From: Naegleria gruberi
Taxonomy: Eukaryota
Strand: one strand, 5' to 3'
Length of the DNA stretch: 64,000 nt
Assembly (NCBI GenBank): GCA_000004985.1
Contig: GG738878.1
Numbering within the stretch: the first letter of the stretch is position 1; every line of letters begins with the position of its first letter. The notes beneath the pieces are model-generated. The model had not been told where the DNA came from. It made no database searches and saw only the letters and a program-made list of their open reading frames with translations. A program made the translations under genes and the position numbers. Positions 31,932-62,182 of this stretch are shown here, in pieces.

Positions 31932-31975
31932 TTTTTACAAATTGTTTTTTATTCAACCACTACAGGCGGGAACAG

Positions 31976-43377: not shown

Positions 43378-44634
43378 ATGAAAAAACTTGACTGCTCTGT
43401 GCAAAATTATTCCTGGGGAAGAAAAGGAAGCGAAAGTACAGTTGGAATTTTGTACGCCAACACAATAGTGGAAGGAAAAATTGATGAACAAAAACCCTAT
43501 GCAGAATTATGGATGGGAACTCATCCAAGTGGCCCATCTAAAGTAAAATTAGATGATCAGTCAGGTTCGGAATTACTTTCTGAATTTTTAAAACGAAATG
43601 TAGAACAATACTTTTCAAAAGAGGAAGTGAATGAATTCTTTGAAAAGAAGGGATATGAATTTGCTTCATTACCTTATCTTTTCAAAATTTTATCTGTAAA
43701 TCAAGCCCTTTCCATTCAGGCCCATCCTGATCAGACACTCGCTCAAAAATTGTTCAAAAACGACCCAGAACACTATAAGGATCCTTACCACAAACCAGAA
43801 CTATGTTGTGCATTGACAAAGTTTGAGGCTCTTTGTGCATTTCAAAATTTGGAATCAATTGTGGAAAATATCAAAAATATTGAATCGCTCCAATCACTTT
43901 TGAGAGCTCAAAATAATGAATTAATTGACTCTATTCTAAGTAATGATGTAAAGGATTCATCTCAAGATGATAGAAAGATTATTTTGAAGAGTTTATTTAA
44001 AAGTTTGATGACATCACCAAAATCTCTCGTAGAAGCCCATCTTCCAAACCTTGTAAAGAACCTCCAAAATTCTACCTCATCCAGAGATCAATTAATTCTT
44101 AGACTTTACAAAGATTATGGAAATGATATTGGATGTTTCTCAGTTTATTTCCTTAACCATGTTGAGTTACAACCTGGGGAAGGATTATTCTTAGGTCCAA
44201 ACGAACCTCACTCTTATCTTTATGGAGATTGTGTGGAGTGTATGGCATCATCTGACAATGTTGTTAGAGCAGGTTTGACACCAAAATTCATTGATACTGA
44301 AACACTTATTGAAATGTTGACGTACGACGATCATGCATTAGAAAAGATGAAGATGGGTGGTGAAAAAGTCAACCAATTTGAAACTTTATATACCACACCT
44401 GTTTCAGAATTCAAGGTTCAAAAAATTGTCTTGTCTAAAGGGGATAAGTACACTCTTACTCCAAATGCTATTACTATTGCTATTGTTATCAATGGAAGTG
44501 GTTTAGTGAATGGTGAAAACTCCAAGAAAGGAGATGTACTTCTTTTCCCTTTTAATTCCAAAACAGATCTTGAAAATTCTCATGAGGAATCTATGGAAAT
44601 ATTTGCTGCTACAACTAATATTCAAGCTAATTAG
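43378..44634 (+). CDS. mpi: Mannose-6-phosphate isomerase (phosphomannose isomerase type I)
   Basis: ATG at 43378, with an open GTG upstream at 43351. MKKLDCSVQNYSWGRKGSES aligns with human MPI LSCAVQQYAWGKMGSNS. The zinc/active-site regions are LPYLFKILSVNQALSIQAHPDQTLAQKL, YKDPYHKPELCCALTKFEALCAF and LGPNEPHSYLYGDCVECMASSDNVVRAGLTPK. Stop TAG at 44632-44634. Confidence 0.85.
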   Translation: MKKLDCSVQNYSWGRKGSESTVGILYANTIVEGKIDEQKPYAELWMGTHPSGPSKVKLDDQSGSELLSEFLKRNVEQYFSKEEVNEFFEKKGYEFASLPYLFKILSVNQALSIQAHPDQTLAQKLFKNDPEHYKDPYHKPELCCALTKFEALCAFQNLESIVENIKNIESLQSLLRAQNNELIDSILSNDVKDSSQDDRKIILKSLFKSLMTSPKSLVEAHLPNLVKNLQNSTSSRDQLILRLYKDYGNDIGCFSVYFLNHVELQPGEGLFLGPNEPHSYLYGDCVECMASSDNVVRAGLTPKFIDTETLIEMLTYDDHALEKMKMGGEKVNQFETLYTTPVSEFKVQKIVLSKGDKYTLTPNAITIAIVINGSGLVNGENSKKGDVLLFPFNSKTDLENSHEESMEIFAATTNIQAN

Positions 44635-46112: not shown

Positions 46113-47042
46113 TCCTTCTCAATGATCATATTGTGAGAGTATTTCAACAAGGTGTGTTACTTTGATTTTGATCCGAGTTGATATACAAGTAAATTTCAAT
46201 ACTTGTGCAATGGAAATATTAATTGATCAAATTAAATATTAATTTCGGTTAAAAGGTTTTCTTGTTGAAAATCCACTTCTAAACAATAAACTATTGCAAT
46301 AGATGTTAATTCTCTTTTCAAATATAATATTTGCACTAGATGAAAACAATAATAACTTGGAAGATGATCTGATCAGAAGAACTCTCACAACAACAATACT
46401 GTCAAAAAACAACAATTGGGTCACAGAGTAAGAAAACTTCTCAGATCTTATCTAGAAAACAGTAACTAACTACAAACAAGAAACTATTACAACAACAAGA
46501 GAATGAACACTCTTCACAGGGAGTTTAATGGTTTTTTTTAAGCGGAATGAACAAAGGCCTTTGTACGGTTCCTCCTTTCAATCTCTTCTTTTTGTGTCTG
46601 ACAAAGATCACAAACAAGGCTCTCTGAAAGAGCGAAAATTAAATTGATACTGTGTTGGTTAGATATTAAAATGAATGAGAGTACCCTGTTGTAGTTCAAA
46701 TGTTGGAAGGATACTTTTCTTACGATCTTACTTTGTCGATCTGTTGGATATCAAACAAAGATTGAGATCTTAATGTTATCAGTGTTTGAAAATTTGTAAA
46801 TCTAGATCAAAAGATATGTGAAGAAAGATTTGTTGGTCTCTTGATAGATCAAAATACAAAGCCCTAATTAGTGCGTTATCAACGTTGCCAATCATTTCTC
46901 TATGTTTGTACCTAAGGGTTTTATCTTGATTGGGTAATTTGAGGGTAATCTGAGATTTTGTATCTTTTCTTTAAATTTCATTGTAATCAATAGAACGAAC
47001 ATTAAGAACCAATTAATTTAAGTGAGCTCTATATTTTTCCAA

Positions 47043-48840: not shown

Positions 48841-50142
48841 TTATTCCTTCTTTGGATACTTGAGCCCAGTCAATGAAGGTTTAATATAAATTGGACAAGT
48901 AAGAACAGCATCCGCACCAAAACCCACAGCACATGTAACTACAATATTGTAGCTAACTTGAATGAGTTTAGAGTTATTGATAGATGCCATCCAAAAAGCT
49001 CTATTTTCAAAATTATCATATTGTTCAGAGTTTTCAGCTTTTGACTCTATAGAACGATAGGATGGAATTTCAAAAGTAATCTTGGTTTCATAATTTTCTT
49101 CAGATAAAACAATCTTATCAATTTGTTTCTCAAACATTACAATATTTTCTTTTTCCTCAGCTGGTTTGCTCTCGAAAAACTTTAATCCACCTTCTTCCTT
49201 TTCCTCAGTTTCAATATGTCTAAATTCTTGAATAAGAGCAACATGGATGCTGTTCACAGTCTTGGTTGATTGATTATTAACTTGAAGACTGAAAACGATA
49301 TCATCGTCATACATTCTGAAAGTATTTCTAGCAAAATTACATCCAACCTTCAGCTTTTTTGCACTAAATAAATACTTTTTAGATGTTTCAAAGTGCATGG
49401 TTGATTTTCCAGAAACTCCTTCAATAGTAGGATAGAGTTCACTCACAAAGAGAATGCATGATTTTTCAATCTTACAAGTATGCAAAGATTGTTCATTACT
49501 AACAACTTTCTTTTCCTTTGGATGATGAGCAGCAACAACTGATGTATGTGCATTGTGTTCATGGTGCTGATGATTAACTTTAATTTCGTGTTGTTCCGTA
49601 ACTAAGAAGGCTTTAAATTTGTAACAAATAGAATATTGTGTATCGTGTCTTTCGTGGAATGTGCTAGTAGGAATTCTATCTGGGAGAGTATAGGAGAATG
49701 GATACGAATGTTGTCCAATATCTAAATCTTCATTCATAAAGTCTTTAATTAACATATAATCCACAAAGTAGACATGTTCTTTTACAACTTCATATTCATT
49801 GCTTTCATTCTTTTTCGAATGTCTTTCAAAAGCTTTACATCTCAAAACAAGTTTTTTAGATACAGATGAATCCAAAGTACTTGTTAATTTTACATCAATA
49901 AATCCGGATACACAATCATGTTCCTTGATAAATTTCTTGTCATTATTTGAAACTCTGATACGAATAGAACCTCCGGAAGTAATTGTATTCTTAAATTTAA
50001 AACGTTCCAGAGTAGATTGAGGAATTATTGATGATGGTGTGATGGGAACATCTTCAACTGTAACAAGAATATTATCTGGTGGTGGAGAGTGTCCAAGATC
50101 AAAGCCATTGTTGACGATGTGCTCATCCGATGCAGAGTTCAT
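48841..50142 (-). CDS. Arrestin-domain-containing protein (alpha-arrestin/ARRDC-like)
   Basis: 433-aa single-exon ORF. The arrestin_N hallmark GQHSYPFSYTLPDRIPTSTFHERHDTQYSICYKFKAFL fits G.HsFPF.F.LP...P.SF....g.i.Y.lKA.L. A second beta-sandwich, presumably arrestin_C, follows. Confidence 0.65.
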   Translation of the reverse strand: MNSASDEHIVNNGFDLGHSPPPDNILVTVEDVPITPSSIIPQSTLERFKFKNTITSGGSIRIRVSNNDKKFIKEHDCVSGFIDVKLTSTLDSSVSKKLVLRCKAFERHSKKNESNEYEVVKEHVYFVDYMLIKDFMNEDLDIGQHSYPFSYTLPDRIPTSTFHERHDTQYSICYKFKAFLVTEQHEIKVNHQHHEHNAHTSVVAAHHPKEKKVVSNEQSLHTCKIEKSCILFVSELYPTIEGVSGKSTMHFETSKKYLFSAKKLKVGCNFARNTFRMYDDDIVFSLQVNNQSTKTVNSIHVALIQEFRHIETEEKEEGGLKFFESKPAEEKENIVMFEKQIDKIVLSEENYETKITFEIPSYRSIESKAENSEQYDNFENRAFWMASINNSKLIQVSYNIVVTCAVGFGADAVLTCPIYIKPSLTGLKYPKKE

Positions 50143-50362
50143 TTTTTATGATTGGTAAATAACTAATCTTTATTTGTTTGTTAAATAATACTTCTCGTCA
50201 TAATACCATGCGTATAATATTATATTTTTCGCAGCAGTAATCGAATTGAAAATCCATCAATCATCCCACAATCAAAGATGTTAAATCATCTCAAAAGTTT
50301 TGCTGTTTTCGAGGTAATAATGAAGTAATAAGGAAACAAATCTAGAGCTTTAATGTGAAATA

Positions 50363-52210
50363 TTAAACTTTTATTGGAGCCTTAGTTTCCTGTTCTCTTT
50401 GTAAACCTCTGAACATTTTACCGAATGGTTTGTTAGGAATGAATCTTCCACTTCCTGCTTCCACATTTAATTGACCATTTTCCCAGACAACTTTACCATT
50501 AGAGATTGTCACTTCAACAACTCCTGTTACTTGTCTTCCTTCATAGACATTATAGTCAATGTTTTGATGATGTGTTTTAGCACTGATGATTCTTGTAGCA
50601 TTTGGATTCAAAATGATAATGTCAGCATCAGATCCAACTTGAATAGCTCCTTTTTGTGGGTAAATGTTAAAGATTTGAGCAGCTTCAGTGCTGGTAACTC
50701 TAACAAAATCACTTGGAGATAATTCACCACTTGCTACGAGTTTATCAAAGAGAACTGACATTCTATCTTCTAAGCCATTGACACCATTTGGAATCTTTCT
50801 AAAATCACCAAGACCCATCTTTTTTTGCTCACTATCGAAAGTGCAGTGGTCAGTTCCTGTTAAATCAAGAATTCTATTCTTAAGACCTGCAATAAGCGCC
50901 TTTTGATCCTCAATTCCTCTAATTGGAGGTGACATGACAAATCTTGCTCTATCCATCCAACTGCCCTTATAATATACACTGTCATCAAGTGATAAACCAG
51001 CAGCGATTGGCTCACCAACAATTCTATAGCCCTTTGCTTTAGCATGAGCAACTTCTTCCATTGCTTCCTTACTCATGACATGAACAATATCTGCCAATTA
51101 ATTAGTTGTTCAAGTTCAAATAAGGTAAAATAACTTACATAATGGAGCATTACCAACAGAGTAGGCAATTTCAGAGGCACGTCGAACAGCCTCAGCTTCA
51201 ACATTTGAAGGTCTGCTTTGTGGATGGCCCTCAGGTCCTGTAATATTAAATTCATTGAACAACCTTGTTTGGCCTTTTACTACCAAATCACCATTCTCTG
51301 CATGCACTTGAGAAATGGCTCCAATACTCATGGCAGTCTTGAATCCATTATATAATTCCTCATCATTGACTTGGAAAACTCCCTTATAAGCCATGAAGAA
51401 TTTAAAACTATTAATTCCATGATTTTCCACAAGTTCTTTCATTTGTTGAGCAGTATTTTCATTAAATCCTGTAATTCCAACATGGAATGAATAATCTGCA
51501 CAAGCCAATTTTTCTCCTCTCCTCTTATATTCATTGACAATATCAAGATAAGTTTCTCCTTTAGCTGGAATTGCACTTTATCAACATCTTTCCAATTGAC
51601 TAGTAAATTATAAACAACTTACAAATCCATAATCATGGTGGTTCCTCCTGCAAGTGCAGCTCTTGTTCCGTGATAAAAGTCATCCTTACTAATTGTTCCC
51701 ACTTTTGGATAATTGTGTGTGATTAAACTATTAAATATAACATAATTACATACTAAATTTAAGTGCCAAATGGACATGAGGATCAATACCTCCAGGCATT
51801 ACATATCTGTTAGAAGCATCAATTAATCTGACTTGACGATCCTCCTTCTCTTCTTGTTTTAGAATGTGATCGTAACTTTGATCATCATGAAGCACATTAA
51901 CAATTTTTCCATCTTTAATAACTACTGTTCCTTTGAATTCAAGATCGTGCGTTACGATGGTACCTCCATGGATTACTATTGTGATTGGTGCATATCGTAT
52001 GGTAACAAGTTGTGGTTCATCTTGATGTTGTGCCAACACTACACAAAGAAACAGAGAAATGATCAATGTGGTGATCAAAAGAAATGTTGTTCGCCCTTGC
52101 ATTGTTTGTTGGATTTTTCTTTTTTCTTGTGGTATGCACTTTACAATGCTGTTTGAGTCATTTGCGTCTTTTTGGAATAGCTTTTCTCTTTTGGTTTGCC
52201 TGATGAACAA
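50363..52210 (-). CDS. dpys: Dihydropyrimidinase (cyclic amidohydrolase, DHPase/hydantoinase family), 4 exons
   Basis: Exons are 52210..51754, 51701..51623, 51575..51139 and 51090..50363. The introns are 52, 47 and 48 nt with GTATGT/GTAAGT donors. Splicing restores [74 protein letters not shown], which aligns with human DPYS [58 protein letters not shown]...CCDYSLHV. Further conserved blocks are NSFKFFMAYK, VHAENGD, GITGPEGHPQSRP, VEAEAVRRA, PLYVVHVMS, IPNGVNGLEDRMSV and GSDADIIILNP. The N-terminal roughly 55 aa, including the hydrophobic TTFLLITTLIISLFLCVVLA, are an extension. The start is either M 52210 or M 52102. Confidence 0.85.
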
Positions 52211-52321
52211 GCAAAATTTCAGTAGGGCGGAGAAACATGGGCAAGAGCTTTTTTTGCACCTTTAAGGATGTTTCATTTAAGAACTGTACAATTTATTTTA
52301 CATTTTATTTGGGCATTGAAT

Positions 52322-54363
52322 TTAGACGGAGAACTTCCAGGTCTTACACATGAAATCTTCACCACCAGAAACAAATGTTTCACTATCAATGAATGCACAA
52401 GTGGAAACACCCAAATGGTGAGCCATGTCAGTCTTAACTCTCTTACCAGCAGCAAGATCCCAAACAATCAAGTTCTTATCAAGTGAACAAGTAAGCATAT
52501 ACTTGCTATCATCAGACCAATCGACATCAACAACAGCAGATGAGTGATAAGTCATGTTGGAATACTTTGGTTTCCATGATGCAGTATCAAAAATAACAAC
52601 ATCATAAGCACTATCAGCTGAAGCTAAAAGAGCACCATCTGGAGAGTAAGAAACCTTTTGAATCTTGGCTGTGTTTTCAGCAAGTTCAGTGGCACCGTCA
52701 ACAATCTTTTGACCAGCAACCTTATAAACACGAATCTTCTTATCCTTACAACCAACAGCAATTTCACTACCATCAGGCTTAATTGAGATAGATTGTGGAT
52801 CCTTATCAATCTTGACTTCAGACAAAATCTTACCATCAGCAGAGAGCAAAGTAGCACCAACGTGAGTTGAGATGGCAACCAAATTTCCATCAGCAGAGAC
52901 AGAAACATCATTTGGAGAACCGAGCAAAGTAGTGGCATCACCAACATATGTGAAATCTGAAAGATTGACCAAACGAACTTCGTTATTTTGAGCAGCAGTA
53001 ATCAACTTGTCACCAGCAATAGCCATAGTATTAATAGTAACATCTTGGTGCCCATTTCCTTGAACCTTAGCAACACTACCAACACCAACTTCCCATTTAA
53101 TCAATTGACCACCAGTTGAACAAGTGTAGAAGAATTTACCACCAGATTTCTTATCAACAACAATCTTGTTGACACGAGCATTGTGACCCAAAATCTTTCT
53201 TTCAACACGAGTACAATCCTTAGAGAGAACGTTCAAATCACCGTTCAAAGAAATTGAAACAGGAACACCAGCAATTACTGAAACACCAACTTGAATATCA
53301 TTGGTAGAATCTCCAATAACAGTGGTAGCAACACATTCCTTAGTATCAATATTCCACAATTTGACAGACTTATCACCAGAAGCAGTGACAATATGCTTGT
53401 TGTCCAAATAGGACAAACCATAGATTGAGAGCTTGTGACCATTGGTTTGAGACAATTCACCAAGTTTTTCACCAGTCTTTCCTTCAAAGAAAATAACCTT
53501 CTTATCAGATGAGCAAGAAGCAAAAGTACTTCCGTCTGGTGAATAACGAATACAGTTAATGAAACGTTCGTGATCCTTGTTTGAGTGAGAGAACTTGAAT
53601 GGAGGACCAGTGAAAAAGTTCAAAGACAAATCAGCACCACCAGTGGCAATTCTGAATGGTCTTTCTGGACGAGAATCACAAGTGAGAACTTCCTTTGAGT
53701 GAGCAGAAATTTCACCAGTATTAGTACCCATATCATAAGCAAAAACAGCTCCGTATTCTTGTTTACCATCACCAACAGCAACAACACGTTGGGAATCACC
53801 AGTCCAAGCCAAATCACGAACACTCTTTGACAAGACACGCTTTTCCAATTTGATGGTCTTGTCAGCATTTTCAGTTGACCAAATACGAACATTACCTGAC
53901 TCATCTCCTGAAGCAATGTAAAAACCTGTTGGTGCGAACTTTGCAACATTGACCTTATGAGTGTGTTGAGTATAATAGTCAATAGAAAGCAAATTGTTCA
54001 AATCACGGATCAAAACATTGGTTCCAGAACCATAGGTGAATTTACCAGACTTGGAGGCAGGAGCAGCAGAAATAAAAGTTGGACGGCCTCTTTCGGTATT
54101 TGGGACACCACCGTATACGTTTTCTTTATAAAATGTTATTGTTGTTATTTGCAGTAGTATCACACGACATCATCATGATTCAAACAAATCATTGTATACA
54201 ACAGATCAAAGTGTCGGTATCATTATTAATCATCAATGATAATACATTGTATTCATTATCCGCATCAAATCATCATGTATACACCAACATCAAAAAAGAA
54301 TCATCAAGCTTAAGATATTCCTTGCCCAAGCGAGAAAAAATACTTACGGAGAGAGATGGACAT
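52322..54363 (-). CDS. wdr1: Actin-interacting protein 1 (Aip1 / WD repeat protein 1), 2 exons
   Basis: Exon 1 is 54363..54348 (MSISL, GTAAGT donor). The intron is 54124..54347 (224 nt). Exon 2 is 54123..52322. The N-terminus MSISLQNVYGGVPNTERGRPTFISAAP...FTYGSG aligns with D. discoideum Aip1 [27 protein letters not shown]...IVYASG. 14 WD repeats are recognisable, for example YAPTGFYIASGD, GEISAHSK, FKFSHSNKDHERFINCIRYSPDG, IYGLSYLDNKHIVTASGDKSVKLWN and DWSDDSKYMLTCSLDKNLIVWDL. Confidence 0.85.
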
Positions 54364-54415
54364 TTTTTTTTGTGTTGAATTGTGATGGCTTGTATTGACG
54401 ACTTGAAGCTTTTTG

Positions 54416-55927
54416 ATGGTTTTATGTATTACAGCCTCTGCTCTGGCAGTTTGGTTGATAAAATTATGGATACAAACGAATGCCCAATTTGAAAAAATGA
54501 AACATGTGCCAGGAGCTTGGCAATTGCTTTCGTTTTCATTCTTTTATATTCCCTTCCTTTCTCCTTATAGTTATATTGGTAGCTATAACAATCTGGTCAA
54601 GGCTGTGGAAAAGTATGGAGACCCAATAACTAAAACATTCAGATTGACCACTTCTAAATCAAATTCTGTTTGGATTAGTGATCCAAAATTATTGAAAGAA
54701 TACTTCATTGCAAAGGCTCACAATTTCGAAAAGCCAAATTACAATGTGGCAGCCTTCTTTGGGGAAAATATTCTATCAGCACAAAACAATGAAAGTTGGA
54801 AGAAACACTTTAAAGTTTGTAATCCAGCATTTGGTCCAAAAAATCTCAAATATCTCTGTAAGGTTGCAGTAGAGTCTTGTAATTCAATGTTTGAGATGTG
54901 GGATAGAAGATGCGATGGTACAAACAATTGCATTCTCGAACATGATGACTACCCAAATTTGAGTTTGCAAATTTTGGGCTTGGCAGGTTTAAATATTGAC
55001 TTTGGTATCTATGCTGAGGAAGCAGAGGGTAAACAGTTCAGATTTCATATGGTAAATATGCAATCAGGAAGATCCATTATTTTAAAAATGTTCTTTGACA
55101 AAGAGTCTTTCATGTACAAACTCATTGGTAGAATTACTGGCATTTCACAATCTATTGAATTTTGCAGTAAATATTTGGATAAAATGATAGAGGAAAGAAA
55201 AGCTAAATTGAAGAATGAAGATTTCTGTGAGGCAGATGAAATGAGCGATATTTTGAGTCTGTTGGTGAAGGCTAATGTAATTGAAAATTCAATTTCTAAT
55301 GATGAACTCAAAAGTAACTCGATGGTAATGAGCGTTGCTGGCCATGAGACGACGGCGAACGCTTTGAGATGGGCCTCTTACTACATCTCAAAAAATACCC
55401 AAGTCCAAGAAAGGTTATGGAGAGAGATTGACGCCGTACTCAATGGAAGAAATCCTACCTATGAAGATTACCAATCTTTGGAATATGTAAATGCTGTGTT
55501 GTTGGAGACTTTAAGATTGTCTCCACCAGTCTTACACATGGGAAGAGTTGCTCTTAAAAATCTCACTTTGGGAGAGTATGAAATTAAAAAGGGAGTGTCT
55601 GTAATTCCAATGTTTGGATATGTACAGAGGAGGGAAGACATTTGGCCTAATGCTTCAGAATTCAACCCAGAGAGATTCCTTGATCCAGAGGTTAAGGCTA
55701 ATTATCAACACAACTTTACCTTTGCGGCTTTTAGCTTTGCAAATAGACAATGTTTGGGAAAGAACTTTGCATTGTTGGAGGCATGCATGATTTTATCCTC
55801 AATGATGCAAAAATATGAACTCAAATTATTGAATGATGAGGAAACAGATCCTATAGTTGCTGTACCATTTCCTGTTAATCGTCCTTCGAAGAACTTGAAA
55901 ATTCAATTGTCGAAGAGACACGATTAG
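54416..55927 (+). CDS. Cytochrome P450 monooxygenase
   Basis: The ATG at 54416 follows an in-frame TTG at 54413. The N-terminus is a hydrophobic anchor MVLCITASALAVWLIKLW. The helix I motif is AGHETTANALRW, K-helix is ETLRLSPPV, the PERF motif is FNPERF and the heme loop is FSFANRQCLGKNFALLEAC. An out-of-frame ATG at 54385 opens a 32-codon uORF-like frame. Confidence 0.85.
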   Translation: MVLCITASALAVWLIKLWIQTNAQFEKMKHVPGAWQLLSFSFFYIPFLSPYSYIGSYNNLVKAVEKYGDPITKTFRLTTSKSNSVWISDPKLLKEYFIAKAHNFEKPNYNVAAFFGENILSAQNNESWKKHFKVCNPAFGPKNLKYLCKVAVESCNSMFEMWDRRCDGTNNCILEHDDYPNLSLQILGLAGLNIDFGIYAEEAEGKQFRFHMVNMQSGRSIILKMFFDKESFMYKLIGRITGISQSIEFCSKYLDKMIEERKAKLKNEDFCEADEMSDILSLLVKANVIENSISNDELKSNSMVMSVAGHETTANALRWASYYISKNTQVQERLWREIDAVLNGRNPTYEDYQSLEYVNAVLLETLRLSPPVLHMGRVALKNLTLGEYEIKKGVSVIPMFGYVQRREDIWPNASEFNPERFLDPEVKANYQHNFTFAAFSFANRQCLGKNFALLEACMILSSMMQKYELKLLNDEETDPIVAVPFPVNRPSKNLKIQLSKRHD

Positions 55928-55940
55928 AAATTCATAGAAA

Positions 55941-56863
55941 TTAATGAAAGTGCAAGTATAATATTACTAAAGCACTGAGGAAAATCCACTTCCAAAAAGA
56001 TCCAAGCTGCATCTTCTTTTTCTGTTTCTTTTGTTGGTGTTGAATAATCTCATTTTCATCAAAAGGTATTCCATTATTATATTTAGCAGCATTTGTAGTA
56101 TCTCCAAGTCTTGAATAAGTGAGAGCAATAAATTGGTAGACTCTCTCCTCGTTAGATTTATCTAATTCAATAGATTTCAAGTAATCGCCAAGTGCTTGTT
56201 TGTATTTTTCCAGTTCAAAATATGAAGATCCTCTATTAATAAAGGCAGAGCTATTGTGGGCTCGAGCTTGATTGCCTCGGTGAAATCCTTGATGGCATTT
56301 TCGTACTCGCCATTTTGATGATATGCTGAACCTCTACTTAAATATGCTGTTGAAAACTTTGAGTTCAATTCAATAGATTTTGAAAAGTCCTCGATAGCTT
56401 TGAGGTATTCCTTACTTTCCAAGTGAACAACTCCTCTTCTACTGTAAATCAGATAATCAGGGCTTTCTTCAATTACCTTATTATAATCTTTAAGAGATTT
56501 ATCAGTTTCTCCAATCTCATAATACAAATGTCCTCTAATTGTGTAAATTAATATCTTGTTTGTTGAATTAAAGTCCAAAGCAAAATTAAAATCCGAAATG
56601 GCTTTCTCCTTTTCCTTCATTTCTAAATACACAAGACCTCTACTGCAATAAACATCACCATTTTTTGGTTTTAATTTGAGAGCTTCGGAATAGTCAGATA
56701 TTGCTTTTTCAAATTCTTTCAATTCAAAATATGAACTTGCTCTGTTGTTGAGAGCAGTAAAATTATTCTTATCAAATTGGAGGGCATGGGAAAATTCATC
56801 AATGGCTATTTTAAATTTTCCACTATTGTGTGCAGACAAACCGGCAAGGAGGTGTTGTTCCAT
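55941..56863 (-). CDS. Tetratricopeptide-repeat (TPR) protein with a C-terminal transmembrane tail anchor. The CDS is split by a single-base frame break near 56243-56250.
   Basis: ORF 56177..56863 has about six 34-aa TPR units, each with an ...ALNNRASSYFELKEFEKAISDYSEALKLKP... pattern. Near plus coordinates 56243-56250 the frame dies (...AIKLEPTIALPLLIEDLHILNWK...*). The +2 frame continues the TPR with RGSSYFELEKYKQALGDYLKSIELDKSNEERVYQFIALTYSRLGD and ends in the hydrophobic tail SFWKWIFLSALVILYLHFH* (ORF 55941..56180). One extra A in ttattaATAgagg (tta-aat-aga-gga) would restore a single frame. Confidence 0.55.
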
Positions 56864-56967
56864 TTGTTTAAATTAGTTTTATTAATAAAGATAACACAAA
56901 CAATAAATTGTAAATAAGAGAGTGTTTTAGATTGAACAGGGCTTAGTATTTTTTACGAACAATGTAT

Positions 56968-57040
56968 TCCCCCTTAGCTCAGTCGGTAGAGCGTCAGACT
57001 GTTAATCTGCAGGTCGGTGGTTCGAGCCCACCAGGGGGAG
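56968..57040 (+). tRNA. tRNA-Asn(GUU): tRNA-Asn (anticodon GUU)
   Basis: A 73-nt cloverleaf. The acceptor stem TCCCCCT pairs with AGGGGGA (57033-57039) and G is the discriminator. The D-arm is GCTC AGTCGGTAG AGC. The anticodon stem-loop TCAGA CTGTTAA TCTG(C) has GTT at positions 34-36 and U33. The T-arm is GGTGG TTCGAGC CCACC. There is no intron. Confidence 0.85.
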
Positions 57041-57925
57041 TAATGTTTTATTTTCAATATCTTAATTTATTGTTATTATTCATTTCTGTTTTCACTCCCT
57101 TGTAGTGCAGTCTGCCTTTTGGTGGAATGTTGAACCGAAAAACAATTTGAAAATTCATTAGAAGAAGCATTAATCTTATAAAAGGAAGGTAGTTGACTGT
57201 CCGTTTAAATACACTTGAATAGGATACAACTTTTTTTCGTTGTTTGTAACTTCATGGTTGACAATCAAAGTATTCGTGGACTCCACAACATTGGAAAGTC
57301 TTGGACTGGAAAATCTCTTATTGTTAGGCAGTGAAAATGACAAGAAGGCTTACCTGAAGTCTTAATTTCCTTTTTCCATACACCATCAATCTAATGCGTG
57401 ACAATGGATTCAACCAAACCCTCTGTTTTCAAAAACCTTTTCACACATTCACATAAATAAAAATCTTATAAACGAGCTCGTGGGATCTTCTCTTCATCCC
57501 GTTTCACCAGCTCTTTAAGATACATTCCCCATCTTCAGTACTATATTTTACAACAACAATTATAGCTAAAATCGCTTTAATTCATTTAGGAAGATCATTG
57601 GAGATTGTCCAACAACAGAAATATTTTTTAATTTTAATATTTATTTAATAATCTAAATTGTTAATATCCTGATTTAAACAAACACTTTTAAACTCGTTCA
57701 ATAATTTTTAGACTTGTAGTGAAGAGCAACTCACGTACAACTCCAACCAACATCTTATTTGAAAATCAAAAACGATACCGTACTCAAACAAATAAGGAAA
57801 AGTTGGCAAGAAATCATTTCGAACAACATCAAAATTGTATTTAATTACAACCTTTTGTACAGAGTTTCGTTTCATCAGTTTACACTCTATCGACATCACT
57901 CGACCCGATATAACTGAATTGTATT

Positions 57926-57942
57926 GTTGGCGCCATTTTTTT
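57926..57942. promoter_or_regulatory. E2F/DP-type site GTTGGCGCCATTTTTTT, about 525 bp upstream of the cyclin ATG
   Basis: GGCGCC core with a 3' T-run, matching the reverse complement of AAAAAAATGGCGCC. It lies inside the low-AT island 57041..58417. Confidence 0.45.
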
Positions 57943-58465
57943 ATTGAATTAGCTGAGTGGTACAAGAAGAAACTGTTCGGGCTTTTCTCAACCTGTGCTG
58001 CCATTTGCTTTTCAGTTTGCCTGTTGTTTGTGTTCTCTCTCTTTGCGCATCTCTTAATCGTAATTGACGTACCGCCAAGCAAAGCACTGTATTGATTTAG
58101 AAAACGACTGTGCTGTTTGTTGTTGTTGAGGTCCAGAGTTTATTGTTATCACTCCTCAACTACCTCCTTAGTGCTTGCTCAAAATCCAAAAAAAAACACT
58201 CCATTGGCTTATTGAACTGAACAGCGGTTTCAAAGTTCATTTTCTTTCAACTTCCTTACTGCCCTCATTCCTCTTGAAATCACATTCCTACCAATCCGAA
58301 GATTGGATTAATAGCGATTGTTGATTTGCCTTATATTCCCTACAACAACACACCTCTTCTACAATATTACTACCAACTACCAACTACTTCCATTATTAAT
58401 TCTTTTAAGAATATTTAGTGATCATCGACTTTCCTCATCAAACTCTCATAACCTCCAATTTAAGA

Positions 58466-59932
58466 ATGAATACAAGAACAACACCATTCCCTTTCAGAAG
58501 AAACTACTCATCACCAAGCTGCAATGGCAGATACACATCCGATTTCAATACTCCCCAAGATAAGATACGGGATGATGAAGCAATTTCTGATACAAGCAGC
58601 TGTATCGGTAACTATAATAATTCTCCATACTCTGTTGATGGATCCTCATCCATTTCTTCTTCCTCCTCATTCATGAGGGATCGATCCCTCTCTACATGCT
58701 CTGTAAATGTTTCCCCTCTTTTAAGAAATTCTTTGGATTGTTTCTCTTCGCCTCCAAGTTATGAAACTTATGAACAACCCAGACAATTGATTAATTGGAG
58801 TGAATACTTTTTCAGTCTGAGTCAAAAACAAAGCCAAGTTAGAACGAGAAAGACAGCCTCTGTCTACCAACAATTATATACTTCAAGCTATATGAAAAGA
58901 TATAGAAGTGTTGTCTGTGATTGGTTCTTTGAAATACAGTACGCTTTGTCTTTGAGTCAAAGACTCGTCCATGTTGCTACCTTATACATGGATATTTGTA
59001 TGTATAGACTTTATTCCACAAACAGGGTAGCTTGCCCTTCCACTAACATTGCACCTGGTGAAGGTCTCTTTAGTATCAAGCAATATCTTCAATTATTAGC
59101 TGCCAGTTGCTTATGGATTTCAACCAAACGAGATGAAACTTATGGCGACTCAAAACTTAAACTCGATACCTTAGTACAATATTGCTGTGGCATGTACACC
59201 AAACAAAATTTCCAAGAAATGGAAGCTTTTGTATTAGATTTACTGGAATGGGAATTAGAAGATACTCCTTCTATCGATTTTCTTGATACAATGATGGCAT
59301 CAGACTCTGATTTATCAAGTGAAGATGACATGGAGGATGAAGAATCATCTGAAGAAGAGACATTCAACAACTTTAAGGAATCTGTTAAACACTACTCGAA
59401 AATGATTATTGATTCCTCAATACTGAATACACTCGTTACCGGATCAAATAAGGAGAAAATGGACACTTTTGAGCAACTTAAACAATTGTTTAATATCCAT
59501 GTCCCAAGCCAATACGTTCAACAACTTGAACATACATATATTTCACTCTGGATTACCATGCTTAATTATCCAAGCTTATTGGCTTTATCCTCACTTCTTT
59601 CCGGATTATTCTTATATCACTTGTATGAATCTCCTTTTGAACAAGGCCAATTATCTGGTATTTACCAATCTGCTGATATGACCACCCTGGAACAATTTGA
59701 AGATGTTCTTTCTCATTATTGGACATCAGACATGGAAATGAATATTGGTTATAGTTTGGAACAAGTAGCTATTTGCTCAAGAATTCTATACACATTCTTT
59801 CATATTGAGCAATCAAAAACCTCAGTTGAAGAAAAACCGAAACGTGAAACACAAAGACCATCAAATAATACTCGCAGCGAAACAACTCATGGATTGGATC
59901 AAATGAACTTGGCTTGCAATGAGCAACTGTAA
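58466..59932 (+). CDS. Cyclin (cyclin-box protein; A/B/E-class not resolved)
   Basis: First ATG at 58466 in an ORF open from GTG 58418. The cyclin box MKRYRSVVCDWFFEIQYALSLSQRLVHVATLYMDICMY...LQLLAASCLWISTKRDETYGDSKLKLDTLVQYCCGMYTKQNFQEMEAFVLDLLEWELEDTPSIDFLDTMM fits the cyclin_N pattern MR.ILvDWLvEV...l..eTL.LAV.y.DRfL......lQLvG..cl.IAsK.EE.......e.v......yt...i..ME..iL..L.f.l..pT...FL. The N-terminus is Ser-rich, there is an acidic SSEDDMEDEESSEEE stretch, and a second helical fold follows. Confidence 0.75.
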   Translation: MNTRTTPFPFRRNYSSPSCNGRYTSDFNTPQDKIRDDEAISDTSSCIGNYNNSPYSVDGSSSISSSSSFMRDRSLSTCSVNVSPLLRNSLDCFSSPPSYETYEQPRQLINWSEYFFSLSQKQSQVRTRKTASVYQQLYTSSYMKRYRSVVCDWFFEIQYALSLSQRLVHVATLYMDICMYRLYSTNRVACPSTNIAPGEGLFSIKQYLQLLAASCLWISTKRDETYGDSKLKLDTLVQYCCGMYTKQNFQEMEAFVLDLLEWELEDTPSIDFLDTMMASDSDLSSEDDMEDEESSEEETFNNFKESVKHYSKMIIDSSILNTLVTGSNKEKMDTFEQLKQLFNIHVPSQYVQQLEHTYISLWITMLNYPSLLALSSLLSGLFLYHLYESPFEQGQLSGIYQSADMTTLEQFEDVLSHYWTSDMEMNIGYSLEQVAICSRILYTFFHIEQSKTSVEEKPKRETQRPSNNTRSETTHGLDQMNLACNEQL

Positions 59933-60062
59933 TAAATAAGGTCTTTTTCAACCCCTTAATTTAGATGTTGTACAAAAACATTTCCTTATTGATCTCTCGA
60001 TAAAAGACAATCCAATTAAGGAAATACGCCAAGATTTGCTTACAAATTAGTAAATTAATAAT

Positions 60063-61778
60063 TTATAAAGTTTCTGCTTCATCAGCAATGGTTGAGGTAT
60101 CGTCTTCGTCTTCACTGGAGGCAACAGCTGATTCATCATCATCAGCATCATCACCTTCAGGTATTTCGTATAAATCTAATCTGTCTCTGTTTGGATGCTT
60201 CAACAAGACAAATTCGCAATCTTGCTTATTGTTTTCTTGGAGATATCTTTGAACATATTCGATTATGAGTTTAACAACACCCCACATGTTGTACAAATGG
60301 AGTTGAAGTTGATCAGCAAAGTCTTCTGGTCTGTATTTTTCAGTGCCCAAAATAAGGTGAGTCTTTGTAGCCTTTGGTGATTGTCTTGAAACGAAACCGA
60401 GCTTGAATTGCTTGCTTGAGCTCAAAAGGGCTTGAGCAGTCCACTTAGCCATTTTGGCAGAGTTGTTCTTAAATTCAGCCATGATGATTGAGGTCTTTTG
60501 GGATTCCATTGAAGTCTTCCAATCAGCAACATTGTGATATTGATTTTGTTCTGCTGGGAAATATTCATTCAAAACCTTCAATGACATTTCTTCATCACCT
60601 GAAGTTTCCTTAGACAAACCATTGATTTCACATCTTACGAGAAGGTTAATTGAGTCACTTAATTTGAATTCACGATACTTGTAAGCCAAGTTAAAGACAC
60701 CAGTTGAGAATGGAACAGCTTCGTTACCCAATTTCTTAACTTCATCTTCCTTGAAAGCTTGTTTTTGGAGGTAAGCATTGACGAGAGTAGCTTCCTTACT
60801 CAATGAGAATGCAGAGTTGATGGATTGAACATTCTTTTCATCTACTGATGGAGGATTTGATGATGTTTCAGAAACAGAGTGCCACAAGTTAATGTTACGA
60901 CCTTCCAATTTTCTCATATCCAAATAAATCTTTCCTTCACTGACACGAACAGCCATATCCCAAGGAAGTTCGGATTTAGAAGCAGCCATAAGTGTAGCAA
61001 TAGCATCATCAGTGGCAAAAACGTTGGCTTCTGGAGCAGTCTTATTGTTAAGAAGTGGATCTTCTGATGAAGCTGGTGGTTGAAGAATATAACCATTAAG
61101 TTTTTGTGGTTTTTCCAAAGTGAGTGGTTGTTTGGCAGAAGCTCTGTCAAACTTCTTGTCATAGTATCCCAAACTACCACAAATATGACGATCAATTGGT
61201 TCAGGTGTCTTGTATCCTTTACCACTTTCCAATGGTTCTGTTGTAGCCTTCTTCAATGTACCGAATAAGAATTTATCAATCAAGACCCAGCTCTTCTTAA
61301 CCTTGATGGAAGGTTTGTAGTTTTGTGTCTTGGTTTTTTGATAATAGCTAAGTGTGGCCTTCTTTTTCTTTTGTTTGTTTTGCTTGTTTTGTTCTTGGTT
61401 GTAAGCAGCCTTTGGAGGTTGTGATTGTGTAGTAGGTCTTCTCTTGTTTTGATTATAGTTGGTGTAGGATTTTCTTTGACTTTGAGTGTTTGAAACGACC
61501 AAGTTAAAGTCGTCATTAGCACCAGTTACATTGGCAATAGCAGCAGCAACTGAGTGAGTTGTTGTACTTGTTGTTGGAGCCGATTGTTCGCTTGTCCAAT
61601 CAGCAATTTTACCAATACTTATTTTACTAGGAATAATGTGAAATAAATTTGTTGGCAAAGACAAAATTTCTGATTTAGATTGTTCAACAGAAGAGGAAGC
61701 TGGGTGAATAGGACCCCATCCTTCCTTTGATTGTTCGAGCAGAGAAATGGCAGAGAGTAAATCTGATGACGATTGCAT
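60063..61778 (-). CDS. eif3d: Eukaryotic translation initiation factor 3 subunit D (eIF3d)
   Basis: 571-aa single-exon ORF. N-terminal GWGP and GKIADWT align with human GWGP and GKVADWT. NVFATDDAIATLMAASKS aligns with NVFATDAILATLMSCTRS. LVRCEINGL aligns with IVRCEHDGV, and EFKNNSAKMAKWTAQALL with ELKNNSYKLARWTCCALL. The C-terminal tail is acidic, as in eIF3d. Confidence 0.85.
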   Translation of the reverse strand: MQSSSDLLSAISLLEQSKEGWGPIHPASSSVEQSKSEILSLPTNLFHIIPSKISIGKIADWTSEQSAPTTSTTTHSVAAAIANVTGANDDFNLVVSNTQSQRKSYTNYNQNKRRPTTQSQPPKAAYNQEQNKQNKQKKKKATLSYYQKTKTQNYKPSIKVKKSWVLIDKFLFGTLKKATTEPLESGKGYKTPEPIDRHICGSLGYYDKKFDRASAKQPLTLEKPQKLNGYILQPPASSEDPLLNNKTAPEANVFATDDAIATLMAASKSELPWDMAVRVSEGKIYLDMRKLEGRNINLWHSVSETSSNPPSVDEKNVQSINSAFSLSKEATLVNAYLQKQAFKEDEVKKLGNEAVPFSTGVFNLAYKYREFKLSDSINLLVRCEINGLSKETSGDEEMSLKVLNEYFPAEQNQYHNVADWKTSMESQKTSIIMAEFKNNSAKMAKWTAQALLSSSKQFKLGFVSRQSPKATKTHLILGTEKYRPEDFADQLQLHLYNMWGVVKLIIEYVQRYLQENNKQDCEFVLLKHPNRDRLDLYEIPEGDDADDDESAVASSEDEDDTSTIADEAETL

Positions 61779-62182
61779 TTTTTTTCTTCAAAAGAATGTT
61801 GTAAAGAATCAAAGGTTTTTAATTTAATTAATATTATTAATAATTCTTCAATGATCTTGGCTTGATTTCCTCTTCACAGATATAAATATTCGAGAAGTTT
61901 ATTTCGATATGAATACAATTCGAGATTGAAGAGAAGGGAATAATTTTATGATGGTGAATCTTTGGGTTGAAGGCTTGAAAAAAATTATTGTCTTTTGATG
62001 AAAAAGGTCAAGTTGTCCTGCTATCATGTTGTCTGGAAGAAAGTACTCTTATTATTATTAACAATCAATTATGGCTGAACAAGCAACTCGGTCAAATTTT
62101 CCACAAGTCAATTTTAAATTAAAATCTTCATCAATTAATATTATTACCCTCTTCCTATCAATATTGAATGAATTGAAAAAAA

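What the first reader, a model, noticed from the sequence alone, without database searches (positions are those of the whole stretch)
57041..58417. 1.4-kb compositionally atypical non-coding island immediately downstream of tRNA-Asn
Typical intergenic DNA here is 85-90% AT, but this block is only about 60-65% AT. It has no credible ORF: the two overlapping 60-124-aa frames lack codon bias. It carries an E2F-type site at 57926. It may be a long structured 5' leader of the cyclin gene; several short uORFs are present, for example ORF 58318-58563, which overlaps the cyclin start. A second possibility is an unannotated ncRNA. A third is the eroded remnant of a tRNA-targeting retroelement, since TRE/DGLT-type elements in social amoebae integrate at fixed distances from tRNA genes.
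Basis: inference. Interest (0 to 1): 0.5.

Follow-up and report, generated by a model that had tools for sequence, protein, structure and literature searches.

The report
Long AUG-free leader of Naegleria cyclin
The "odd island" is not a hidden RNA gene or a dead retroelement: it is most likely the promoter plus an unusually long (0.5-1.06 kb), start-codon-free 5' leader of a Naegleria gruberi cyclin gene carrying a conserved E2F-type cell-cycle site. This is ordinary in kind but unusual in length.

Summary
The window is Naegleria gruberi, not a social amoeba: the cyclin ORF is 100% identical to an NCBI N. gruberi protein. The block is real and non-coding. It has no Rfam hit, no repeat, no Pfam domain, and no homolog of any six-frame ORF.

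The stated contrast is overstated. The block is 66% AT. Other gaps in the window are 66-83% AT (median 71%). The excess GC is extra C on the cyclin's sense strand.

The decisive feature is that no ATG occurs on the + strand from 57405 to 58465 (1,061 nt; about 13 expected). This tract ends at the cyclin start codon. The antisense strand has 23 ATGs there.

The N. lovaniensis ortholog has an 899-nt ATG-free tract ending at its start codon. A third Naegleria-like lineage has at least 551 nt. The sequences are otherwise unalignable. Other genes have a median of 49 nt.

The E2F-type site TTGGCGCC (57927-57934) is enriched about 50-fold in the window and occurs only outside coding sequence. In N. 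lovaniensis it sits at the same distance from the ATG (537 vs 535 nt).

Best reading: promoter plus a long, G-poor, uORF-free leader. Transcription itself is inferred, not shown.

The parts
56967..57041 (+). tRNA-Asn (anticodon GTT). It is followed by T-runs that would act as a Pol III terminator. It is not present at the orthologous N. lovaniensis locus, so it is not part of the cyclin feature.
   Evidence: ARAGORN; Rfam tRNA 67.9 bits; no tRNA in L001-L003
57042..57404 (.). Ordinary spacer or presumed distal promoter zone. ATG density on the + strand is normal (5-6 observed, 6.5 expected), GC is 32.8%, and G>C skew switches to C>G near 57300.
57405..58465 (+). AUG-free tract (1,061 nt), the inferred 5' leader of the cyclin mRNA. 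It has 0 ATG on the sense strand (13.4 expected from local dinucleotides) and 23 on the antisense strand. The sense strand is C 22% and G 12%.
57600..57700 (.). AT-rich trough (21% GC) that splits the block into two GC-richer halves. Its function is unknown.
57807..57880 (+). Island of patchy conservation with N. lovaniensis (L001 about 7300-7365). It includes AATTACAAC (57843-57851) and TTTCGTTTC (57865-57873), which are 22 nt apart here and 23 nt apart in N. lovaniensis.
57918..57935 (+). Composite conserved element ATTGTATTG-T-TGGCGCCA. The E2F-type site TTGGCGCC is at 57927-57934, and its GGCGCC core starts 537 nt before the ATG. N. lovaniensis has ATTGTATTG-CAG-TGGCGCCA with the core 535 nt before its ATG.
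58185..58197 (+). TCCAAAAAAAAAC A-tract. A similar C-C-A8-C tract is present in the leaders of all three lineages (L001 7673, L003 about 388). A8 runs are a common feature just upstream of Naegleria start codons.
58277..58327 (+). Local hairpin containing the palindrome CCAATCCGAAGATTGG. The 150-nt window has z = -3.15. A second local hairpin lies at 57463-57521 (z = -2.85). These are isolated and not conserved in N. lovaniensis.
58329..58338 (+). CCTTATATTC, a 10-mer shared with N. lovaniensis at a similar distance from the ATG (137 vs 152 nt).
57711..58139 (-). Antisense open frame of 143 codons (the ATG-initiated version is 57711-58004, 97 aa). It is longer than chance but has no coding signature, no homolog and no counterpart in N. 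lovaniensis. It remains unexplained and is probably not a gene.
58466..59932 (+). Cyclin-box protein CDS (488 aa; Pfam Cyclin_N 2e-14). It is 100% identical to an annotated N. gruberi protein. The start 'MN...' is conserved in the orthologs.

Best explanation
The block is the upstream control region of a Naegleria gruberi cyclin-box gene. It has two parts: about 360 nt of ordinary spacer after the tRNA, then a 1,061-nt tract (57405-58465) that is transcribed in the sense direction as the cyclin mRNA's 5' leader.

Shown by computation:
- The tract is non-coding.
- It contains no ATG on the sense strand although about 13 are expected.
- It is C-rich and G-poor on that strand, and it has no more predicted structure than shuffled sequence.
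- The same ATG-free, C-rich property is found upstream of the orthologous cyclin in N. lovaniensis and in a third Naegleria-like lineage, although the sequences are otherwise unalignable.
- An E2F-type palindrome with a neighbouring 9-mer is conserved 535-537 nt before the start codon.

Inferred:
- Purifying selection removes upstream AUGs because 43S complexes must scan this leader to reach the cyclin AUG.
- G-poverty keeps the leader unstructured so that scanning over 0.5-1 kb is possible.
- E2F/DP binds TTGGCGCC and ties transcription to the cell cycle.
- ATG avoidance continues for about 520 nt (N. gruberi) and about 740 nt (N. lovaniensis) upstream of the E2F site. At least some transcripts therefore start well upstream, near 57405.
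- The E2F site then either lies inside the transcribed leader or marks a second, proximal promoter giving a leader of about 0.5 kb.
- The long leader probably makes cyclin synthesis depend on translational capacity or on RNA-binding proteins. That last step is speculation.
For: ATG avoidance in N. gruberi:
- No + strand ATG occurs between 57404 and 58466. The same interval has 23 antisense ATGs, and the other permutations of A, T and G occur 9-14 times.
- The expected ATG count from local dinucleotides is 13.4, and 0 of 1000 simulations reach 0.
- Among all 64 trinucleotides this is the most surprising free run in the window.

Orthologs:
- In the N. lovaniensis locus the most surprising free run is again ATG. 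It is 899 nt with 13 expected, and it ends exactly at the ortholog's start codon.
- The next 459 nt upstream in N. lovaniensis are also ATG-free. The only three ATGs in 1.4 kb lie inside a candidate intron, GTAAGT...TTTCAG at 7002-7121.
- In L002 and L003 the sequence is ATG-free from the contig end to the first in-frame ATG (at least 488 and at least 551 nt; 5.1 expected).
- Between L002 and L003 the leader differs 36 times more than the CDS and carries 1-, 1-, 4- and 2-nt indels. It is therefore non-coding, yet it stays ATG-free.

Background and boundaries:
- The upstream ATG-free length of 40 other window genes has a median of 49 nt and a maximum of 298 nt. For 9 other L001 genes it is 2-115 nt.
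- The flanks have normal ATG density, so the boundaries are sharp.
- Both the half upstream and the half downstream of the E2F site are ATG-free in both species. The combined expectation upstream of the site is 17.4.

Composition and structure:
- Sense-strand C is 20-28% against about 15% upstream of other genes, and G is 2-16%.
- Fold z-scores average about 0.

E2F-type site:
- TTGGCGCC gives 6 strand-matches at 4 loci against 0.11 expected in the window, and 3 against 0.27 in L001.
- 7 of the 11 GC-only hexamers in the 64 kb are E2F cores. All lie outside coding sequence, upstream of dUTPase, SMC-like, HAUS3-like and FAM184-like genes and the cyclin.
- Position and the flanking ATTGTATTG are conserved in N. 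lovaniensis.
- E2F/DP/pRb are reported in Excavata in a survey that included N. gruberi (PMC4862756).
Against: - There is no transcript evidence of any kind. No RNA-seq, EST or 5' RACE data were reachable, so the TSS is unknown and transcription of the tract is inferred only from the evolutionary signature.
- In this compositionally heterogeneous window, other trinucleotides also have free runs with local expectations of 11-12.7 (GTC, GAC, CCC, CTA). The single-species Poisson P of about 1e-6 is therefore too optimistic, and the argument rests on replication in the orthologs and on strand and position.
- Only three lineages could be compared, and one of them only over about 550 nt.
- An E2F site 520 nt or more downstream of the presumed distal TSS is atypical. 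In the other genes of the window the site lies 30-100 nt before the ATG.
- The antisense 143-codon open frame is unexplained.
- The cyclin is divergent, with no PDB relative by sequence, so its cell-cycle role is assumed.
Confidence: 0.7

Rival explanations
1. Plain intergenic spacer. The ATG-free run and the slightly raised GC are chance plus local compositional drift, with no transcription or function beyond a short promoter near the AUG.
For: Other trinucleotides also show long free runs in this heterogeneous window, with local expectations up to 12.7. The GC excess over other gaps is only 2-7 points. There is no transcript evidence.
Against: The same trinucleotide, on the same strand, ending at the same gene's start codon, gives the top-ranked free run in N. 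lovaniensis as well, and the third lineage is ATG-free too. The antisense strand has 23 ATGs. Other genes have a median of 49 nt. Conserved islands and an E2F site at a conserved position lie in otherwise unalignable DNA.
Confidence: 0.08
2. An independent, unannotated non-coding RNA gene (or lncRNA) lies in the block, separate from the cyclin mRNA.
For: The block is long, non-coding and relatively GC-rich. Two local hairpins have z of about -3. Short conserved islands are shared with N. lovaniensis.
Against: No Rfam family matches at gathering score or at E<=10, apart from noise at 14-32 bits. There are no C/D-box candidates. Mean fold z-score is about 0 on both strands over 36 windows. An ncRNA gives no reason for strand-specific ATG avoidance that ends exactly at the cyclin AUG.
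Confidence: 0.05
3. A small orphan protein gene on the minus strand (57711-58004/58139) accounts for the coding-like GC of the central part.
For: The open frame of 143 codons is reached in only 1 of 1000 Markov simulations and in 0 of 1000 local-composition shuffles. It has 0 stops in phase 0 against 9 and 10 in the other phases.
Against: Its codon-usage score is -0.024, below every one of 136 true coding windows and typical of spurious frames. It has no homolog at E<=10 in 5.8 billion proteins, including N. gruberi's own annotated proteome, and no Pfam match. AlphaFold mean pLDDT is 41. N. lovaniensis has no long antisense frame at the orthologous place although the nucleotide islands are conserved.
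Confidence: 0.05
4. Decayed remnant of genes lost from this interval. N. lovaniensis has two extra genes between the TPR gene and the cyclin. Such a remnant would leave coding-like composition without ORFs.
For: In L001 a 362-aa gene and a WD40_RLD gene lie between the TPR gene and the cyclin. Neither has a counterpart in the window.
Against: There is no tblastx similarity between the block and those genes. N. lovaniensis itself still has a 1.8-kb gene-free, C-rich, ATG-poor tract next to the cyclin in addition to those genes. A pseudogene would not avoid ATG on one strand. This reading could apply at most to 57042-57404.
Confidence: 0.04
5. Eroded tRNA-targeting retroelement (TRE/DGLT-A-like) integrated downstream of tRNA-Asn.
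For: It is adjacent to a tRNA gene. A LINE-like ORF exists 6 kb upstream of the cyclin in N. lovaniensis.
Against: The organism is Naegleria, not a dictyostelid. No RT, EN, integrase or any other protein similarity was found in six frames. There is no similarity to the N. lovaniensis LINE. There are no LTRs, terminal repeats, A-tails or other copies in the window. The orthologous tract in N. lovaniensis has the same properties without any tRNA.
Confidence: 0.01

Closest known systems
Long 5' leaders of cell-cycle regulators that couple their translation to growth (S. cerevisiae CLN3; S. pombe cdc25 and cdc13). Recalled from general knowledge, not tested here.
   Same: It is a cyclin mRNA with a leader many times longer than is usual for the genome. 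The plausible consequence is that cyclin synthesis is sensitive to scanning or helicase capacity.
   Different: Those leaders work through a uORF (CLN3) or through structure that needs eIF4A. Here there is no AUG at all in 1,061 nt, the leader is G-poor, and it has no excess predicted structure. If it throttles translation, it does so by length or by bound factors.
E2F-regulated promoters of G1/S genes (consensus TTTSSCGC, e.g. animal cyclin E and cyclin A, plant and animal dNTP-metabolism and replication genes)
   Same: TTGGCGCC, TTCCCGCC and TTGGCGGG are the only 'TT + six G/C' octamers in the window. They lie upstream of dUTPase, SMC-like, HAUS3-like and cyclin genes. The site is conserved in the N. 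lovaniensis ortholog.
   Different: In the cyclin the site lies 537 nt before the AUG and inside the ATG-free tract. That places it probably downstream of at least one TSS rather than within about 100 nt of the start as in the other genes. Binding by a Naegleria E2F/DP is not shown.
General depletion of upstream AUGs in eukaryotic 5' UTRs
   Same: The avoidance of ATG is strand-specific and ends at the main start codon. Weaker depletion is seen in the first 50 nt upstream of the other genes in the window (1.08 vs about 2 ATG per 100 nt).
   Different: The scale differs: complete absence over 0.9-1.06 kb, maintained in lineages whose leaders no longer align. Long UTRs in most organisms carry several uAUGs.
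G-poor, CAA/CU-rich unstructured translational enhancer leaders (e.g. the TMV omega leader). A resemblance recalled from memory, used as a lead only.
   Same: The composition is G-poor, C/A/U-rich and AUG-free, with CAACAA- and ACTACCA-type repeats near the AUG.
   Different: It is ten to fifteen times longer. No sequence similarity was tested, and no evidence of enhancer activity exists.
tRNA-gene-targeted retrotransposons of Dictyostelium (TRE5, TRE3, DGLT-A)
   Same: Only the position next to a tRNA gene.
   Different: It is the wrong lineage. There are no ORF remnants, no repeats and no other copies.

Membership tests
5' untranslated leader of the downstream mRNA | Contiguous with the CDS on the sense strand, with no intervening gene or coding ORF | tested here: met
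   No ORF with a coding signature and no homolog in six frames. The tract abuts ATG 58466.
5' untranslated leader of the downstream mRNA | Strand-specific depletion of upstream AUG relative to local composition | tested here: met
   0 observed against 13.4 expected; 23 on the antisense strand; ranked 1 of 64 trinucleotides.
5' untranslated leader of the downstream mRNA | The property is conserved at orthologous genes | tested here: met
   N. lovaniensis has 899 nt, plus 459 nt beyond a candidate intron. L002 and L003 have at least 488 and at least 551 nt.
5' untranslated leader of the downstream mRNA | Transcript evidence: cDNA or RNA-seq coverage and a mapped transcription start | not testable with these tools
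   No N. gruberi contig or transcript carrying this protein is on record. No expression data tool was available.
uORF-mediated translational control | One or more AUG-initiated upstream ORFs in the leader | tested here: not met
There is no ATG in 57405-58465.
Structured leader / IRES-like RNA | Folding energy lower than shuffled controls over the element | tested here: not met
   18 windows per strand give a mean z of about 0. Only two isolated + strand hairpins reach z of about -3.
E2F binding site | Match to TTTSSCGC or the palindromic TTTGGCGCCAAA | tested here: met
   TTGGCGCC at 57927-57934 matches 7 of 8 positions and has a full GGCGCC core. Perfect TTTGGCGCCAAA lies at 3566 and TTTTGGCGGGAAA at 20674 in the same window.
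E2F binding site | Over-representation and restriction to promoters, preferentially of S/M-phase genes | tested here: met
   6 strand-matches against 0.11 expected in the window and 3 against 0.27 in L001. All lie outside coding sequence. Neighbours are dUTPase, SMC-like, HAUS3-like genes and the cyclin.
E2F binding site | Conservation at the orthologous promoter | tested here: met
   N. lovaniensis has the GGCGCC core 535 nt before its ATG (537 in N. gruberi), with the shared ATTGTATTG 548 nt before the ATG in both. The window 31981 site is likewise conserved at L001 11361.
E2F binding site | The organism encodes E2F/DP and the protein binds the site | not testable with these tools
   The literature reports E2F/DP/pRb in Excavata in a survey that included N. 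gruberi (PMC4862756). This was not verified for N. gruberi here. No binding data exist.
Rfam-class structured ncRNA | Covariance-model match at or near the gathering score | tested here: not met
   Only the tRNA passes. The best other match is 32 bits against a gathering score of 59, to a bacterial antisense RNA overlapping the tRNA.
tRNA-targeting retroelement (TRE/DGLT-A type) | Remnants of RT, endonuclease, integrase or gag coding sequence | tested here: not met
   All six-frame ORFs of 30 aa or more gave no hit at E<=10 in 5.8e9 proteins and none at E<=1 in Pfam. tblastx against the N. lovaniensis LINE was negative.
tRNA-targeting retroelement (TRE/DGLT-A type) | Multi-copy in the genome; terminal repeats or an A-tail | tested here: inconclusive
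   There is no other copy and no terminal repeat within the 64-kb window. The rest of the N. gruberi assembly was not available.
tRNA-targeting retroelement (TRE/DGLT-A type) | Host lineage Dictyostelia | tested here: not met
   The window is Naegleria gruberi, Heterolobosea.

The most novel reading that the evidence does not exclude
Kilobase-long, completely AUG-free, G-poor leaders form a distinct and selectively maintained class of Naegleria mRNAs. Two of about 45 genes in this window have one: the cyclin, and the ORF at 44631-46112 with a 764-nt tract. In the cyclin, an E2F element embedded in the transcribed leader acts as an internal, cell-cycle-gated promoter. The gene would then switch between long-leader and short-leader mRNAs with different translational efficiency. 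That would be a combined transcriptional and translational cyclin switch in a deep-branching eukaryote.
Probability: 0.2. Interest if true: 0.55.

Novelty: new member of a known kind. Interest (0 to 1): 0.35.

Why it matters
For annotation, the 'island' needs no new gene model. It belongs to the cyclin gene as promoter plus 5' UTR.

Biologically there are two modest points.

First, a leader of about 1 kb kept entirely free of AUGs in lineages whose leaders have diverged beyond alignment is a clean natural signature of scanning-dependent initiation and of selection on leader content in Discoba. Translation control is barely studied in this group. It also gives a concrete, testable candidate for post-transcriptional control of a cyclin.

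Second, canonical E2F motifs are essentially the only GC-only octamers in 64 kb, and they sit upstream of dUTPase, SMC-like, HAUS3-like and cyclin genes. This suggests that E2F cis-regulatory logic operates in Naegleria. That fits the inference that E2F-pRb control dates to the last eukaryotic common ancestor (PMC4862756).

Tried and rejected
- **Rfam.** A scan of the whole window at gathering score and of 56800-58700 at E<=10 found only the tRNA.
- **C/D-box snoRNA.** A scan with a relaxed C box on both strands found nothing.
- **Repeats.** Direct, inverted and tandem repeat searches in the window and in the block found nothing involving the block. The only exception is a 2.7-copy ACTACCA heptamer.
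- **Exact-protein look-ups for N. gruberi contigs.** The eIF3d and cyclin look-ups were not on record, so no N. gruberi annotation or transcripts could be read.
- **Protein searches of the block.** All six-frame ORFs were concatenated into one protein query. There was no hit at E<=10 and no Pfam match at E<=1.
- **Cross-species similarity.** blastn and tblastx of the block against the N. lovaniensis and metagenome loci gave no significant alignment. Only k-mer collinearity revealed the conserved islands.
- **More orthologs.** A profile search with the three cyclins returned the same three proteins. The search for related loci in metagenome contigs found nothing.
- **Composite element scan.** A scan for ATTGTATTG-N1-3-TGGCGCCA gave 120 or more chance matches. 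None lies next to a cyclin.
- **Cyclin subfamily.** PDB sequence search gave no hit, so the subfamily stays unassigned.
- **Antisense ORF structure.** AlphaFold of the 97-aa antisense ORF gave pLDDT 41, which is uninformative.
- **Failed scripts.** Two of my own shuffle scripts timed out and were replaced by Markov simulations and the strand folding.
- **Literature.** Searches found no paper on Naegleria 5' UTR lengths, E2F sites or this cyclin.
- **Promoter/terminator scanner.** It was not used because it models bacterial signals.
Full report
**Identity of the window.** The ORF downstream of the block (58466-59932) is 100% identical over its full length to an NCBI protein of Naegleria gruberi, a 'cyclin box fold domain-containing protein'. 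It carries a Pfam Cyclin_N domain at 2e-14. N. gruberi is a heterolobosean in Discoba, not a social amoeba. The neighbours are a TPR protein (56177-56863, - strand), a P450, a WD40 protein and eIF3 subunit D.

**The observation.**
- tRNA-Asn(GTT) lies at 56967-57041 on the + strand.
- No credible ORF lies between it and the cyclin AUG. The longest frames are 124/143 codons (- strand) and 86/99 codons (+ strand).
- Their codon-usage log-odds are -0.02 and -0.14. That is inside the distribution of spurious frames (-0.08+-0.17) and below all 136 true coding windows (0.30+-0.11, minimum 0.077).
- The compositional contrast is much weaker than stated. The block is 33.7% GC. Gaps between long ORFs in the window are 17-34% GC with a median of 29%, and local spacers are 27-32% GC. 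'85-90% AT' applies only to two short spacers.
- What is unusual is strand-specific. The + strand has 22% C and 12% G. The sense strand upstream of 26 other genes has about 15% C and 11-16% G.

**What it is not.**
- Rfam gives nothing but the tRNA, even at E<=10.
- There are no C/D-box candidates.
- Thirty-six 150-nt windows on both strands fold no better than dinucleotide shuffles on average. Only two isolated + strand hairpins stand out: 57463-57521 and 58277-58327, with z of about -3.
- No repeat in the 64 kb involves the block, and it has no terminal repeats.
- All six-frame ORFs of 30 aa or more, searched together, have no homolog at E<=10 among 5.8 billion proteins. That database contains N. 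gruberi's own annotated proteome. They also have no Pfam match at E<=1.
- There is no similarity to the LINE-like element in the N. lovaniensis locus.
- A missed protein gene, a known ncRNA family and a retroelement remnant are therefore all unsupported.

**The decisive feature.**
- On the + strand there is no ATG between 57404 and the cyclin start at 58466, a run of 1,061 nt.
- The antisense strand has 23 ATGs in the same interval. The other five permutations of A, T and G occur 9-14 times.
- From the tract's own dinucleotide content 13.4 ATGs are expected, and none of 1000 simulations reached zero.
- The window is compositionally heterogeneous, so I also asked, for each of the 64 trinucleotides, which free run is most surprising. 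ATG at 57405-58467 ranks first at 13.4. GTC, GAC, CCC and CTA reach 11-12.7, mostly in coding DNA. The single-species P-value should therefore not be taken at face value.
- The third-ranked run is again ATG, on the other strand, upstream of another gene (see the last paragraph).

**Replication in orthologs.**
- The cyclin has only two retrievable orthologs: N. lovaniensis (56% identity) and a Naegleria-like organism on two metagenome contigs.
- Their upstream DNA does not align with the block.
- In N. lovaniensis (L001, cyclin at 8001) the top-ranked free run of any trinucleotide is again ATG. It is 899 nt with 13 expected, and it ends exactly at the start codon.
- The next 459 nt upstream are also ATG-free. 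The only three ATGs in 6607-8000 lie at 7066-7103, inside a candidate intron at 7002-7121 (GTAAGT...TTTCAG, 120 nt). This candidate resembles the annotated introns of that locus.
- On L002 and L003 the sequence is ATG-free from the contig end to the first in-frame ATG (at least 488 and at least 551 nt; 5.1 expected).
- L002 and L003 differ 36 times more in this leader than in the CDS, with 1-, 1-, 4- and 2-nt indels. The region is therefore non-coding and fast-evolving, yet it stays ATG-free.
- By contrast, the upstream ATG-free length of 40 other genes in the window has a median of 49 nt and a maximum of 298 nt. For nine other L001 genes it is 2-115 nt.
- The flanks (57042-57404 and L001 6184-6606) have normal ATG density.
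- All three leaders are C-rich and G-poor on the sense strand.
- The start 'MN...' of the protein is conserved, so the annotated AUG is the real one.

**Interpretation of the tract.** The simplest explanation for strand-specific, position-specific and evolutionarily maintained ATG avoidance in non-coding DNA is that the tract is part of the mature mRNA upstream of the start codon. Upstream AUGs would intercept scanning ribosomes there. This is an inference. I could not reach any transcript data.

**The E2F-type site.**
- TTGGCGCC at 57927-57934 is not a chance match. The pattern TTSGCGCS gives 6 strand-matches at 4 loci in the window against 0.11 expected, and 3 in L001 against 0.27 expected.
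- The 64 kb contain only 11 GC-only hexamers. Four are GGCGCC and three are CCCGCC/GGCGGG.
- All 11 'TT + six G/C' octamers are TTGGCGCC, TTCCCGCC or TTGGCGGG, which are the classical E2F variants.
- They all lie outside coding sequence. Examples are TTTGGCGCCAAA upstream of an SMC/AAA_23-like ORF, TTTTGGCGCC about 60 nt upstream of dUTPase, TTTTGGCGGGAAA 33 nt upstream of a HAUS3-like ORF, and a pair in a divergent promoter next to a FAM184-like gene.
- In N. lovaniensis the cyclin's site is retained with its core 535 nt before the ATG, against 537 nt in N. gruberi.
- It is preceded in both species by ATTGTATTG, 548 nt before the ATG in both.
- Further collinear shared words are AATTACAAC and TTTCGTTTC (22 and 23 nt apart), an A8-9 tract, and CCTTATATTC.
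- E2F/DP/pRb have been reported in Excavata in a survey that included N. gruberi (PMC4862756).

**Where does transcription start?**
- In the other genes the E2F site is 30-100 nt from the AUG. An E2F-proximal start for the cyclin would therefore give a leader of about 0.5 kb.
- However, the DNA upstream of the site is also ATG-free. N. gruberi has 522 nt with 4.9 expected. N. lovaniensis has 343 + 395 nt with 12.5 expected. The combined expectation is 17.4.
- I therefore favour a distal start near 57405 (near 6607 in N. lovaniensis). The E2F element would then lie either inside the transcribed leader or at a second, proximal promoter.
- The AT-rich trough at 57600-57700 has no canonical splice sites around it.

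**Mechanism: shown and inferred.**
- Shown: the tract is non-coding, AUG-free, G-poor and not unusually structured. It carries a conserved E2F-type element and a few conserved islands. The same properties occur in three lineages.
- Inferred: it is transcribed as the cyclin 5' leader. Scanning over 0.5-1 kb requires the absence of uAUGs and low structure. E2F/DP gates transcription.
- Speculative: the length makes cyclin output depend on translational capacity or on leader-binding proteins, as with CLN3, cdc25 and cdc13 in yeasts. It would do so without a uORF or a stable structure.

**Unexplained.** The antisense frame 57711-58139 is open for 143 codons. That length is reached in only 1 of 1000 Markov simulations and in 0 of 1000 local-composition shuffles. 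It has no coding signature, no homolog, a low-confidence fold and no counterpart in N. lovaniensis. I treat it as probably not a gene.

**Verdict.** The feature is real but ordinary in kind: promoter plus 5' UTR. It is not an ncRNA or a retroelement. Its unusual aspect is the length and the complete, conserved AUG-freeness of the leader, together with a positionally conserved E2F-type element.

**A second example in the window.** The - strand from 46893 to 46130 is ATG-free for 764 nt, with 12.2 expected. It lies upstream of a 493-aa ORF. This hints that such leaders recur in Naegleria.

Noticed in passing
window 46130-46893 (- strand), upstream of ORF 44631-46112: This is a second kilobase-scale AUG-free tract: 764 nt with 0 ATG on the sense strand (12.2 expected) and 12 on the antisense strand. 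It lies upstream of a 493-aa Ser/Asn-rich ORF without Pfam domains. One out-of-frame uAUG at 46129 sits 17 nt before the ORF's first AUG. An A8 run lies at 46532-46539 on the sense strand.
   Followed up: partly
window 3566-3577, 7648-7656, 20674-20686, 25193-25201, 31965-31988: Canonical E2F-type motifs are essentially the only GC-only octamers in the 64 kb. They are TTTGGCGCCAAA, TTTTGGCGCC, TTTTGGCGGGAAA, TTTCCCGCC, and a GGCGGG + TTGGCGCCAA pair. All lie outside coding sequence, upstream of an SMC/AAA_23-like ORF, dUTPase, a HAUS3-like ORF, kinase fragments and a FAM184-like gene. The site at 31981 is conserved at the orthologous N. lovaniensis promoter (L001 11361). This suggests working E2F cis-regulation in Naegleria.
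   Followed up: partly
L001 7002-7121 (N. lovaniensis): This is a candidate 120-nt intron in the cyclin's 5' leader (GTAAGT...TTTCAG). It contains the only three ATGs found in the 1.4 kb upstream of the start codon. Alternative GTGAGT donors lie near 6784 and 6930.
   Followed up: partly
window 57711-58139 (- strand); L003 3-512 (+ strand): Both are open reading frames significantly longer than chance (143 and 169 codons) inside the leaders, but without coding signatures. The L003 frame is shown to be non-coding by indels between two near-identical contigs. No explanation was found.
   Followed up: yes
window 7587, 11166, 12288, 38473, 43378, 61778 (start codons): Runs of eight or more A sit immediately upstream of many start codons on the sense strand. 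This appears to be an A-rich initiation context typical of this genome.
   Followed up: no
window 1-3000 versus 50000-62000: There is a strong compositional gradient within one window. The first 3 kb are 19% GC, including a 723-codon open frame with AAT repeats (weak PI4K_N match). The region at 50-62 kb is 35-39% GC.
   Followed up: no
window 27400-33150 versus L001 10200-16100: There is a synteny break next to the cyclin. The genes downstream of the N. lovaniensis cyclin correspond to window 33.1-27.4 kb in inverted order. In N. gruberi the cyclin is followed by eIF3d. Two genes lying between the TPR gene and the cyclin in N. lovaniensis are absent from the window, and the tRNA-Asn is absent from N. 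lovaniensis.
   Followed up: partly
L001 1-2054: A LINE-like ORF (endonuclease/exonuclease/phosphatase + RVT_1, 1,448 aa, cut by the locus end) lies 6 kb upstream of the N. lovaniensis cyclin. It is unrelated to the block.
   Followed up: partly
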